Assembly: GCA_021157665.1 (NCBI GenBank)
Contig: JAGGWE010000171.1
Location: 1 to 47,075, forward strand
Length of the DNA stretch: 47,075 bases
Origin: Sulfurimonas sp.
Lineage (GTDB): Bacteria > Campylobacterota > Campylobacteria > Campylobacterales > Sulfurimonadaceae
Direction of reading: 5' to 3'
A program made the translations under genes and the position numbers. The notes under the pieces were generated by a model. The model was not told where the DNA came from. It did not search any database and saw only the letters and a program-made list of their open reading frames with translations. Below, one piece after another: positions 35,388 to 37,993 of the stretch (positions are counted from its first letter, which is position 1; the number at the start of each line of letters is the position of its first letter).

Positions 35388-35411
35388 CTCGTTCCAATGC
35401 TCCGCGTGGGA
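35388..35411 (+). repeat. REP-like element, part left of the IS110 insertion
   Basis: CTCGTTCCAATGCTCCGCGTGGGA joins ATCCATAC (36713-36720) to rebuild the hairpin CTCGTTCCAATGCTCCGCGTGGGAATCCATAC. Confidence 0.7.
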
Positions 35412-35444
35412 GTTTCCACCTTTAAAAATCTTTAAAAAAGTAGC

Positions 35445-36458
35445 TTATTTCATATTTTCTACTTTTTTAATCTGAGTAAAATTCAAATATCTATCTGGGT
35501 CATATTGTTGTTTATTTTTATAAAGAGAATGTGCAAGTAAAACTATTTTACGCATAATAGCAATTTGAGCTAAAGGTTTTGGTTTACCTCTATCGACTAA
35601 TCTATCATACATATGTTTCATTTCCATGTTATATCTTACAACACTAAGTGTAGGCATAAATAATATATCTCGAACTAAGGATAATCCTTGTTTGGATATT
35701 CTAGCTTTTTTTTGTAGTGAAGTACCAGATTCTCTTTGTACAGGGTCTAGTCCACATAATGCTGTAATATGTTGTCTTGATGCATTCGGATATCTAAGAA
35801 AAAGATAGAGTAAAATAATGGCACTTTTTTGACCTACACCTGGAATTGAAATAATATTTTCATATGAATCTAAGTATGACTTATCATTCTCAATAATATG
35901 CATTATTTTTTCAATAAGTTTGTCTTGCTCTTTATCTAATTTAGATATTCTTTGATTAACATCTTTTAAAATATAACTGTCTTCAAGATTATATGTTGCT
36001 CCTTCAAGGTAGTTACTCAATCTTATTTTTTCTTTACCTATAGATTGATAGTATTTAATGAAAGAGCGTATCTGATGGGCTTTCTCATCCCTTAAAGGTA
36101 CTTTTATATCATTCTCTTTAACTAATACATGCATAGATGATAACATACGAGCATCTATTTTATCTGTCTTACTTCTATTTTTAATACTTTTTGAAAAAAA
36201 AGAACTTTGAGCTGCACCAACTTTAAAACATCGTATCTCTTTTGTTTGTGAAAAATATTCTAAAAGTGTAGAATAACTTCCTGTTGATTCGTAAACAAAT
36301 ACAATTTTCTCTATCTCTTTTTTATACAGCTTCTTTAGTTTATTATAGAACTTTTTTAGGCCTCTCAAACTATTTTCTATTTCAATATCTAATTCATTTT
36401 TAGGGATGTAGATTTGAAGTGTTGCTTTTGCAACATCTATTCCGATATAATCATTCAT
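35445..36458 (-). CDS. IS110 family DEDD recombinase/transposase, 337 aa
   Basis: GIDVAK, YESTG and KTDKID (DEDD), SIPGVG, and RESGTS (catalytic Ser). Reads on the minus strand although the ORF track lists +. Start MNDY follows a GGAGG RBS. Confidence 0.95.
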   Translation of the reverse strand: MNDYIGIDVAKATLQIYIPKNELDIEIENSLRGLKKFYNKLKKLYKKEIEKIVFVYESTGSYSTLLEYFSQTKEIRCFKVGAAQSSFFSKSIKNRSKTDKIDARMLSSMHVLVKENDIKVPLRDEKAHQIRSFIKYYQSIGKEKIRLSNYLEGATYNLEDSYILKDVNQRISKLDKEQDKLIEKIMHIIENDKSYLDSYENIISIPGVGQKSAIILLYLFLRYPNASRQHITALCGLDPVQRESGTSLQKKARISKQGLSLVRDILFMPTLSVVRYNMEMKHMYDRLVDRGKPKPLAQIAIMRKIVLLAHSLYKNKQQYDPDRYLNFTQIKKVENMK

Positions 36459-36514
36459 AAGAACCTCCATTAAGTGAAGAGTTCGGTAGCACAGACTTTG
36501 GTCTGTGTGATATA

Positions 36515-36700
36515 CACTAAACCTGACTTTTACTTGTAAATACAGTCTGGTATTTTCCGACTCTGTTTCCACTCAAGTTATCGGTTTAGTTTTTTAACTC
36601 CCACTCTAGCTCATTATTTTATTAATGGCTTCAATTCATAACCCAATATCAATCTCACCGAATCTTACAATATGATTATACTGCTTTCTTGAATGGTATT
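36515..36700 (-). ncRNA. Predicted bridge RNA in the IS110 left end (boundaries approximate)
   Basis: Two internal loops with guide-like segments: TTATGAATT (36641-36633), GTGGGAG (36604-36598), GTGGAAAC (36572-36565) and TACAAG (36538-36533). They match the target and donor junctions, and each pair flanks a hairpin. Confidence 0.8.
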
Positions 36701-36742
36701 TTTATCATACAAATCCATACTTCACTTTTTATTCTTATTGTT

Positions 36743-36774
36743 ATATACACTAGCAAGTAGAACTTGGGAGCGAA
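36743..36774 (-). repeat. Degenerate inverted partner REP (REPIN/BIME-like pair)
   Basis: Minus strand TTCGCTCCCAAGTTCTACTTGCTAGTGTATAT aligns with the rebuilt REP in opposite orientation, separated by a 22-bp spacer. Confidence 0.55.
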
Positions 36775-36787
36775 AAACAATTTTCTT

Positions 36788-37423: not shown

Positions 37424-37993
37424 CTAATCTTTAAATTCATACAGTTCTTCAAGCAAATTTAATAATGGTAAAAATAAAACCTCTAGTTCTCTAATATTTA
37501 TATAACTCTGATTAGGAAAGAAAAAATGGCTGTTACGGTTTCGGCGTGTTCGAATGATGATGTAAAACATCTCTGTTATCAATTTTGCTTTTTGAGTATC
37601 AAATGCTATCTTATCAAAGAGTTCTCTTTGTGCACATTTAAGAGCAGTAGTAACTGTACCTGTATTAATTTCTGCCACATAATGAATCTCTAATCTAGTT
37701 AGTGTTTCATTTAGCCATTCATTATTTAGAGCAATAACTTTTTCACCATACTCATAATTGGCTCTTTTTTTAAAAAAAGGGATATGATGTTTTAAAAGAC
37801 ACGCCTTAAATAAAACCTCTGCACAAAGTGAGATATTACGCCAGAAATCAACAACTTCAAAATGATTTATCTCAAAAGAGATATCTGCAATTTCATAAAT
37901 ACCATTTTCATAGCTAATAACATTTTGAAATGTAGCTAAATGGATAGCATATTGATAATTTTCTTGGGCAATATTACTAATATCAACACTCAT
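37424..37993 (-). CDS. Hypothetical protein, possible HEPN domain
   Basis: AEVLFKACL and RNRNSH (Rx4H) in an all-helical-looking 189-aa protein. Confidence 0.5.
   Translation of the reverse strand: MSVDISNIAQENYQYAIHLATFQNVISYENGIYEIADISFEINHFEVVDFWRNISLCAEVLFKACLLKHHIPFFKKRANYEYGEKVIALNNEWLNETLTRLEIHYVAEINTGTVTTALKCAQRELFDKIAFDTQKAKLITEMFYIIIRTRRNRNSHFFFPNQSYINIRELEVLFLPLLNLLEELYEFKD

What the first reader, a model, noticed from the sequence alone, without database searches (positions are those of the whole stretch)
35388..36720. IS110 recombinase with a readable bridge RNA whose guides match its own donor and target sites
Seen (minus strand): the left junction is GTATGGA-TT-TGTAT and the right junction is GTGGAAA-CT-CCCAC. 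These give donor GTGGAAA-CT-TGTAT and target GTATGGA-TT-CCCAC. The ~250-nt non-coding region upstream of the recombinase holds four segments in the expected order. TTATGAATT is 7/9 identical to the left target plus core. After the hairpin AGCCATTA..TAATGAGCT comes GTGGGA(G), the reverse complement of TCCCAC. GTGGAAAC is 8/8 identical to the left donor plus C. After the hairpin AGTCGG..CCAGACT comes TACAAG, the reverse complement of CTTGTA. Outer stems are TCGGT/ACCGA and AACTTGA/TCAGGTT. Established: this LTG-RTG-LDG-RDG layout is that of IS621-type bridge RNAs, so the system class is known. Inference: this is an intact Campylobacterota ortholog of an RNA-guided recombinase with its own donor and target specificity and may be reprogrammable.
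Basis: partly seen in the sequence, partly recalled or inferred. Interest (0 to 1): 0.85.

Follow-up and report, generated by a model that had tools for sequence, protein, structure and literature searches.

The report
Bridge-RNA transposon with mismatched crossover core
This is an intact, recently mobile jumping gene of the known RNA-guided IS110 kind that lands in a host hairpin repeat, and its landing site reads TT where its own crossover site reads CT, a mismatch its predicted guide RNA mirrors and that would loosen the matching-core rule used to design these genome editors.

Summary
Observation confirmed, except the two outer stems. The 1,301-bp element (36711-35411, minus strand) encodes an intact 337-aa IS110 recombinase with the IS621 fold. 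All four guides are real: in 74 parsed homologs they covary with junction DNA (left target 4.69 vs 2.66 of 7 matches; right target 4.58 vs 1.39 of 5; 0 of 20,000 permutations). A handshake base also covaries (37 of 50). A second right end lies on G000 contig C65. One vent metagenome run holds a contig joining this element's left end to a site that is empty in G000 and two other runs. The target is a genus-wide REP-like hairpin, entered from the arm opposite to the one most close relatives use. The empty target core is TT while the donor core is CT; the left target guide ends TT and both right guides keep AG. Right junctions read CT in 118 of 123 loci and never TT, as top-strand exchange predicts. 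RNA expression, the circle and reprogramming are untested. The scan noted mismatched cores before in other IS110 elements. Verdict: known class, modest variant.

The parts
36714..36720 (-). Left target (LT, positions 1-7), host DNA: arm of the REP-like repeat
   Evidence: 5 of 7 match to the LTG, against 0-2 of 7 for this LT with the LTGs of 27 close relatives in the same 9-nt register
36712..36713 (-). Left-junction core TT, target-derived
   Evidence: At the C186 site the empty allele reads TT-CCCAT and the filled allele TT-TGTAT; inferred to hold here
36707..36711 (-). Right donor (RD) TGTAT, first bases of the element; overlaps a -10-like TATGAT
   Evidence: same RD as IS621; homolog contigs break here
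36675..36680 (-). Second -10-like box TATAAT upstream of the guide region (candidate internal promoter, inferred)
   Evidence: Within one mismatch in 32 of 34 close and 46 of 55 distant left ends; AT-rich DNA makes this weak; the sigma-70 scan lists no site here
36516..36650 (-). Predicted bridge RNA, two-loop core (transcript ends unknown)
   Evidence: Folding z = -2.7; covariation; no Rfam family
36633..36641 (-). LTG, 9 nt, ending TT
36608..36630 (-). Inner hairpin of the target-binding loop
   Evidence: 4 of 6 pairs with compensatory change
36598..36604 (-). RTG, 7 nt; its AG is complementary to CT, so G faces target T8 as a wobble before exchange and donor C8 after
   Evidence: pairing states inferred from PMC11208158
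36596..36597 (-). Target-loop handshake guide TT
   Evidence: Second base complementary to donor position 6 in 42 of 52 rows
36575..36590 (-). 5' strands of the donor-loop outer stems (ACTAAACC; ACTT)
36565..36572 (-). LDG, 8 nt
   Evidence: LDG equals LD in 65 of 66 elements over five LD types
36544..36562 (-). Inner hairpin of the donor-binding loop
   Evidence: 6 of 7 pairs with compensatory change
36533..36541 (-). RDG, likely 9-nt discontiguous (AT, two bulged bases, ACAAG)
   Evidence: A and T at 36541-36540 invariant in 46 sequences; the base a contiguous model needs is T in only 55 of 74; near-identical stretch in the IS621 RNA
36531..36532 (-). Donor-loop handshake guide TA; its T matches target A7
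   Evidence: Complementary to target position 7 in 37 of 50 rows, null 14.7
36516..36529 (-). 3' strands of the donor-loop outer stems (AAGT; GGTTTAGT)
36464..36510 (-). 3' hairpin and Shine-Dalgarno GGAGG ahead of the recombinase
35445..36458 (-). IS110 recombinase, 337 aa: D8, E57, D99, D102 and S244-G245
   Evidence: PF01548 + PF02371; residues invariant in 12 sequences; IS621 E 3.1e-19, ISCro4 E 1.1e-19; Foldseek TM 0.71, 24% identity to 8wt9
35413..35419 (-). Left donor (LD) GTGGAAA at the element's right end
   Evidence: identical on C65
35411..35412 (-). Right-junction core CT, donor-derived
   Evidence: CT in 118 of 123 loci with an LD motif, TT in none
35388..35410 (-). Right target (CCCAC) and the rest of the split REP-like hairpin
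36745..36776 (-). Second, degenerate REP-like copy in inverted orientation upstream of the insertion
   Evidence: Seen in the sequence

Best explanation
This is an intact IS110 element of the IS621 type whose left end is predicted to encode a bridge RNA that likely guides its recombinase to join a circular donor (core CT) to a host REP-like hairpin whose core is TT. Shown: the recombinase domains and catalytic residues, the four guides and a handshake base covarying with junction DNA across homologs, several insertion sites, and a filled/empty pair. Inferred from the IS621 mechanism: the LTG (ending TT) reads the target bottom strand exactly, while the AG of both right guides reads CT by Watson-Crick pairs and TT by one G:T wobble. 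Top strands are cut 3' of position 9 and swapped, so the left junction keeps the target's TT and the right junction keeps the donor's CT. The position-8 mismatch would be repaired on the nicked bottom strand along with the mismatches at positions 6-7. Only T9 need be shared. The element is aimed at the RTATG(A/C)A arm of the repeat; most close relatives are aimed at the CTCG arm.
For: Protein. Guides: LTG vs LT 4.69 vs 2.66 of 7 (42 distinct guides; 5.08 vs 2.55 for 12 guide clusters); RTG vs RT 4.58 vs 1.39 of 5 (24 guides); both 0 of 20,000 permutations; LDG = LD in 65 of 66; RDG positions 10-11 match RD in 74 of 74. Handshake 37 of 50. RNA structure 0 of 500 shuffles, and slid controls drop from 95.7% to 22-42% paired. 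Mobility: second right end on C65; two more left junctions in runs X2 and X3; the X2 one maps to a site empty in G000 and bridged by X3 and X4 contigs. Core (64 scored elements): LTG T at position 8 goes with left TT 20 times and CT 9 times; LTG C goes with CT 32 times and TT once; LTG G with CT twice. Right core CT in 118 of 123, TT in 0. All 12 empty repeats of this arm in G000 read TT. Cut sites and expected bottom-strand mismatches: PMC11208158 section 12, PMC13626964 methods passage.
Against: The permutation and shuffle tests ignore relatedness and so overstate significance. In IS621, pairing with the CT core was strongly preferred and matched TT cores were less efficient (PMC11208160); CT and GT cores did not cross-react (10.64898/2026.04.29.721476). 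Nine elements with a T guide have a CT left junction, so these systems also use CT targets. IS621 itself gave 15 of 117 off-target sites without CT, so tolerance may be general. The window's own target has two LTG mismatches (positions 1 and 6). The target-loop closing stem is weak in this copy (one of three supported pairs is A-A). The filled allele at C186 rests on one contig with 30 flank letters, from one study that may be the window's source.
Confidence: 0.8

Rival explanations
1. Ordinary IS621-like element with no special core logic: every bridge recombinase tolerates T at core position 8 through the G:T wobble, and the LTG simply drifted to match the repeat it happens to target.
For: 15 of 117 IS621 off-targets lacked CT; TT left junctions also occur in 3 of 54 distant homologs; the scan's unchecked notes report mismatched cores in several other IS110 elements; the published strand-exchange mechanism already predicts the TT/CT product.
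Against: TT is the majority state in the close clade (22 of 31) and tracks the guide base, so it is the programmed target rather than an off-target. No donor/target core-mismatch test was seen in the passages read.
Confidence: 0.45
2. Targeting needs the hairpin as well as base pairing (sequence plus structure, as reported for ISPpu10), here with the stem beginning at the right target.
For: All 3 insertions with a known right flank (window, C65, C186) are in the hairpin, although only 8 of 222 genomic sites within three mismatches of the guide-predicted 14-mer and 8 of 27 sites with a perfect centre are repeats. 19 of 32 close relatives have the hairpin at the right flank. ISPpu10 precedent.
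Against: About 89% of G000 is coding by my crude ORF mask, so insertions elsewhere may be purged by selection. Sister elements with other guides insert at sites without this hairpin (L069, L073, L083, L107). Three sites are few. The ISPpu10 stem lies 5' of the target, not 3'.
Confidence: 0.25
3. The cores were CT at both ends at insertion and the left C later mutated or was converted to T, or the boundaries are shifted by a base.
For: C-to-T is a common mutation (general knowledge); 9 of 31 close relatives have CT at both ends.
Against: The empty C186 site already reads TT and the filled allele is identical up to the element's first base; all three known left junctions of this element read TT; the guide itself encodes TT.
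Confidence: 0.03
4. The element moves by single-strand copy-out and donor-only 'half-match' reactions, so the target loop matters for insertion but excision does not restore an empty site.
For: Reported for IS621 (10.64898/2026.08.31.748434, passages). Three close relatives have donor-like right flanks unrelated to their RTG (L034, L071, L099).
Against: Nothing here tests excision chemistry. This is compatible with, not exclusive of, the best explanation.
Confidence: 0.4

Closest known systems
IS621 of E. coli and its bridge RNA (PMC11208160, PMC11208158, PMC13626964; PDB 8wt6, 8wt9)
   Same: RuvC-like DEDD plus Tnp serine domains; RNA region upstream of the gene; LTG-RTG-LDG-RDG order with 9/7/8/9-nt guides; donor core and right donor CT-TGTAT identical; handshake at target position 7; inserts in palindromic repeats.
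   Different: 24% protein identity; own LD and target; natural 7-nt RTG; target core TT against donor CT where IS621 has CT in both; no sigma-70 -35 evident at the rejoined ends; a second -10-like box inside the left end.
ISCro4 / IS622 (10.1101/2025.05.14.653916; PDB 9t56)
   Same: Same fold and 14-bp donor and target layout.
   Different: Design rules there require identical cores and non-matching positions 6-7; here the cores differ and position 7 is A in both donor and target.
ISPpu10 of Pseudomonas putida (10.64898/2026.03.19.712850)
   Same: IS110 element that targets a repeat with a stem-loop.
   Different: Its stem-loop is 5' of the target and the CT core is duplicated; here the stem begins at the right target and the core is not duplicated.
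REP elements (E. coli and Pseudomonas type)
   Same: Short dispersed palindromes with conserved arms and variable loop, often in inverted pairs; IS110 targets.
   Different: No GTAG tetranucleotide at the arm (that hallmark is recalled, from no call); the two Y1 transposase ORFs of G000 have none of these repeats in their loci. Hence 'REP-like'.

Membership tests
IS110 family | PF01548 (DEDD RuvC-like) followed by PF02371 | tested here: met
   both above the curated cut-off
IS110 family | DEDD residues and catalytic serine intact | tested here: met
   D8, E57, D99, D102, S244-G245 invariant in 12 sequences and aligned to IS621 D11/E60/D102/D105/S241
IS110 group (not IS1111) | Long non-coding end upstream of the gene, no sub-terminal inverted repeats | tested here: met
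   253-nt left end, short right end; longest inverted match between the ends is a 7-nt A/T run
IS621-type bridge system | Two-loop RNA structure | tested here: met
   (46 of 69 distinct left-end segments given)
IS621-type bridge system | Four guides that covary with target and donor DNA | tested here: met
IS621-type bridge system | Handshake guides pairing with the incoming strand | tested here: met
   donor-loop base vs target position 7: 37 of 50; target-loop second base vs donor position 6: 42 of 52
IS621-type bridge system | Identical core dinucleotide in target and donor (CT at both boundaries) | tested here: not met
   target TT, donor CT; only T9 is shared. It is therefore filed as an IS110 bridge element and a core variant of the IS621 type
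IS621-type bridge system | Circular intermediate | tested here: inconclusive
   no joint listed in four assembled runs; contigs drop rare forms
IS621-type bridge system | Promoter rebuilt across the joined ends | tested here: inconclusive
   a -10-like hexamer follows the core, but no TTGACA-like -35 lies 17 nt upstream in the computed junction
IS621-type bridge system | RNA expressed and bound; RNA-dependent, reprogrammable recombination | not testable with these tools
   needs bench work
REP elements | Dispersed palindromic repeat in many copies | tested here: met
   24 hairpin hits vs 2 in a shuffled genome; exact pattern in 84 of 194 genomes of the genus, control 0
REP elements | Flanking a cognate RAYT gene | tested here: not met
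   two PF01797 ORFs, no such repeat in their 2.4-kb loci; the genome is 88.5% complete
REP elements | Strictly intergenic | tested here: inconclusive
   crude ORF mask puts 4 of 8 best target repeats inside long open frames; no annotation was run

The most novel reading that the evidence does not exclude
A whole Campylobacterota clade of bridge recombinases is programmed for unlike cores: the RNA writes TT in the left target guide and keeps CT-reading right guides, so only one base is shared and core position 8 works as a third handshake position. This enzyme, 24% identical to IS621, would insert a CT donor at YT sites efficiently. The clade also records natural retargeting between the two arms of one host palindrome by coordinated changes in the LTG and the donor-loop handshake base.
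Probability: 0.45. Interest if true: 0.6.

Novelty: new variant of a known kind. Interest (0 to 1): 0.42.

Why it matters
Bridge recombinases are being developed as programmable insertion tools, and current design assumes identical donor and target cores. A natural clade with a guide-encoded TT target and a CT donor, backed by a filled/empty pair, gives a ready test of whether only the second core base must match and of which strand templates repair. It also supplies a distant ortholog with all guides, handshake bases and boundaries mapped. Class membership alone is ordinary, and the mismatch follows from the published strand-exchange mechanism, which caps the surprise.

Tried and rejected
No RNA holder listed among sequencing runs: no evidence either way on expression. 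Circle junction: no joint listed in X1-X4 contigs; the donor 14-mer has no exact match in G000. Rfam: no match. Viral contigs: no relative. Plasmids: only distant IS110 members, best listed 29.9%. Sigma-70 scan: 9 sites against 8.8 expected, none in the left end. My first structure string had the target-loop hairpin out of register and was redone. My first regex picked wrong LTGs and was replaced by alignment columns. The AG of the RTG in 74 of 74 is forced by my anchor and is not counted as evidence; the RDG AG is not forced. Direction of the arm switch: unresolved, the window's branch sits at an open fork (80/62) with two lineages holding CTCG-arm elements. Whether left CT junctions come from C-bearing repeat variants: 2 of 3 CT cases have the matching G on the other arm against 1 of 10 TT cases, too few. 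The X3 left flank was not found in G000. Host genus not established; the taxonomy look-up was a guess and is not used. Literature: no paper held IS110 + bridge RNA + Campylobacterota; 'core mismatch' gave one listing whose text had no whole-word hit; searches listed nothing on unlike natural cores. Subscription papers, bioRxiv supplements and most of the cut supplementary files of PMC11208160 were not seen and may contain this clade or unlike cores.

Full report
1. The observation. The element runs from 36711 to 35411 (1,301 bp), between a methyltransferase-domain gene and an endonuclease/exonuclease/phosphatase gene. In 5,000 dinucleotide shuffles of the left end, none held all four guides at the observed match levels and 26 held three. 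RNAalifold and pair counting on 46 of 69 distinct left-end segments support other helices instead: ACTAAACC/GGTTTAGT, ACTT/AAGT, the two inner hairpins and a short stem closing the target loop (95.7% of cells paired, 21 of 28 pairs with compensatory change, 0 of 500 shuffles). The structure was derived from these sequences and kin are not independent, so this is strong but not a probability.

2. The protein. The ORF from the ATG at 36458 (Shine-Dalgarno at 36468-36464) gives 337 aa with PF01548 and PF02371. D8, E57, D99, D102 and S244-G245 are invariant in 12 aligned sequences and line up with the IS621 catalytic residues. The only two sequence hits among solved structures are ISCro4 and IS621. 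The AlphaFold2 model (pLDDT 83.4) matches 8wt9 at TM 0.71 and 24% identity. Relatives at E below 1e-60 occur in 22 of 194 genomes of the genus, and at E below 1e-70 in 26 of 401 of the order. Named close relatives are mostly Sulfurovum and Campylobacterales MAGs, so Campylobacterota is inferred.

3. Are the guides real? I gathered 137 distinct homolog loci. A left junction could be parsed in 89 and guides in 74; 15 were dropped because my anchors did not parse them. Junctions were placed by element-end motifs, not by the target guides. With one row per distinct guide, the LTG matches its own left flank at 4.69 of 7 positions against 2.66 in permutations (42 rows; better of two registers, applied to real and permuted rows alike), and the RTG complements its own right flank at 4.58 of 5 against 1.39 (24 rows); 0 of 20,000 permutations reached either. 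LDG equals LD in 65 of 66 elements across five LD types, and RDG positions 10-11 match RD in 74 of 74 across three types. The first donor-loop handshake base is complementary to target position 7 in 37 of 50 rows (null 14.7), as described for IS621 (PMC11208158, passages). The window's LTG is unique in the set; its own flank matches it at 5 of 7, and the LTGs of 27 close relatives match that flank at 0-2 of 7.

4. The element is mobile. G000 contig C65 begins with 57 bp identical to the right end and diverges at target position 14. In four vent metagenome runs of one study (possibly the window's source), two contigs join the left end to other flanks. One flank is the sequence before G000:C186:14913. 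Laid on that region, run X2 shows a contig leaving the reference right after the TT into the element's first bases, while X3 and X4 contigs and G000 run through the empty site. The empty target therefore reads GTATGAA-TT-CCCAT, and the left TT comes from the target.

5. The target is a host repeat. Both right flanks in G000 and the C186 site are copies of a hairpin, RTATG(C/A)A-TT-CCCA-loop-TGGG-AACGAG. A scan gave 24 hits against 2 in a shuffled genome. A stricter scan with no constraint on the left arm gave 19, of which 12 are empty copies of this arm; all 12 read TT and match the LTG at 6-8 of 9. An exact pattern occurs in 84 of 194 genomes of the genus, reversed control 0. The commonest arm has C at position 6; the guide has A, and the three known left junctions have G, A and A. 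Most close relatives carry a CTCGTT-ending LTG and enter the same repeat from the other arm; 19 of 32 with enough flank have the hairpin on the right. Their donor-loop handshake base is C against target G7, and here it is T against A7. The tree does not resolve which arm came first. No RAYT gene sits beside these repeats in the two Y1 loci of G000, so I call them REP-like.

6. The core. Right junctions read CT in 118 of 123 loci with a donor motif and TT in none (5 other readings; 14 loci had no motif). Left junctions read TT in 22 of 31 close and 3 of 54 distant elements. Among 64 scored elements (4 ambiguous and 6 without flank left out), a T at LTG position 8 goes with left TT 20 times and CT 9 times; a C goes with CT 32 times and TT once. 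The RDG ends AG in 74 of 74. IS621 cuts top strands 3' of position 9 and the right guides then pair with the incoming core (PMC11208158 section 12). Products are expected to carry a nicked bottom strand mismatched next to the core (PMC13626964, passage). I infer that a T/C difference at position 8 is read by G:T wobble and repaired towards the top strand, which gives exactly left TT and right CT. Against this being trivial: IS621 prefers CT, published core changes altered donor and target together, editing designs filter for identical cores, CT and GT cores do not cross-react, and the published boundary pipelines looked for repeated or concordant cores. For it being general: 15 of 117 IS621 off-targets lacked CT, and unchecked notes of this scan report unlike cores in several other IS110 elements. 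I had reached the core reading before that look-up.

7. Likely life cycle. Shown: anatomy, covariation, several insertion sites, the TT/CT product pattern. Inferred: low-level RNA and protein from the linear copy, excision to a circle with LD-CT-RD, a two-loop RNA bound by a recombinase tetramer, and insertion into the repeat arm. The joined ends place a -10-like hexamer after the core but no clear -35; a second conserved TATAAT at 36680-36675 may drive the RNA from the linear element (weak evidence). Expression, circle and reprogramming are untested.

8. Papers seen. PMC11208160: passages, sections 7, 9, 10, the supplement list, part 1 of 400 of file 3, and a term search of cut files. PMC11208158: passages and section 12. 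PMC13626964: passages. 10.1101/2025.05.14.653916, 10.64898/2026.08.31.748434, 10.64898/2026.08.14.744561, 10.64898/2026.04.29.721476, 10.64898/2026.10.21.760802, PMC12306157: passages. 10.64898/2026.03.19.712850: abstract, section 7, passages. 10.1101/2025.10.25.684509: term search with no hits. Searches. None showed this clade or a natural unlike core, but the library lacks most subscription papers.

9. Verdict. A real, intact, recently mobile IS110 bridge element. The class is known and large. What it adds is a mapped distant ortholog, a genus-wide repeat target entered from either arm, and a guide-encoded one-base shared core with filled/empty support. New variant of a known kind; interest 0.42.

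Noticed in passing
G000:C116:1116-2114 and G000:C31:1-98: A second, unrelated IS110 (332 aa, about 30% identical) whose right end abuts the same repeat arm in two places; its left end holds GGGAATGC, complementary to the repeat, 130 nt before the ATG. Two IS110 lineages share one target repeat in this genome.
   Followed up: partly
L034, L071, L099 right junctions: Close relatives whose right flank looks like the donor's RD rather than their RTG target; these resemble the published half-match insertions.
   Followed up: no
G061:C1:1160992-1164340; G063:C1 (several); G355:C1; G058:C1: Distant relatives occur as pairs of inverted copies about 1-3 kb apart, suggestive of composite units.
   Followed up: no
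L047 right end; L161 right flank: L047 has a tandem duplication of the right end and right target; L161 shows a second right-end-like motif just downstream.
   Followed up: no
table: LTGs come in two registers (9 nt covering both core bases, or 8 nt stopping at the first), switching even between sister elements such as L050 and L063.
   Followed up: partly
L036: An element in a MAG labelled Clostridia has a left end nearly identical to L034 from a Campylobacterales MAG; misbinning is likelier than transfer.
   Followed up: no
G000:C19:6903-7181 and C231:11912-12199: Two Y1 transposase (RAYT-like) ORFs without these repeats nearby.
   Followed up: partly
L059 left end; L074 left end: Short insertions inside the left end, one between the RNA loops (L059) and one just after the donor loop (L074).
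   Followed up: no
window 37424-37993 (-): 189-aa ORF with no Pfam match.
   Followed up: no
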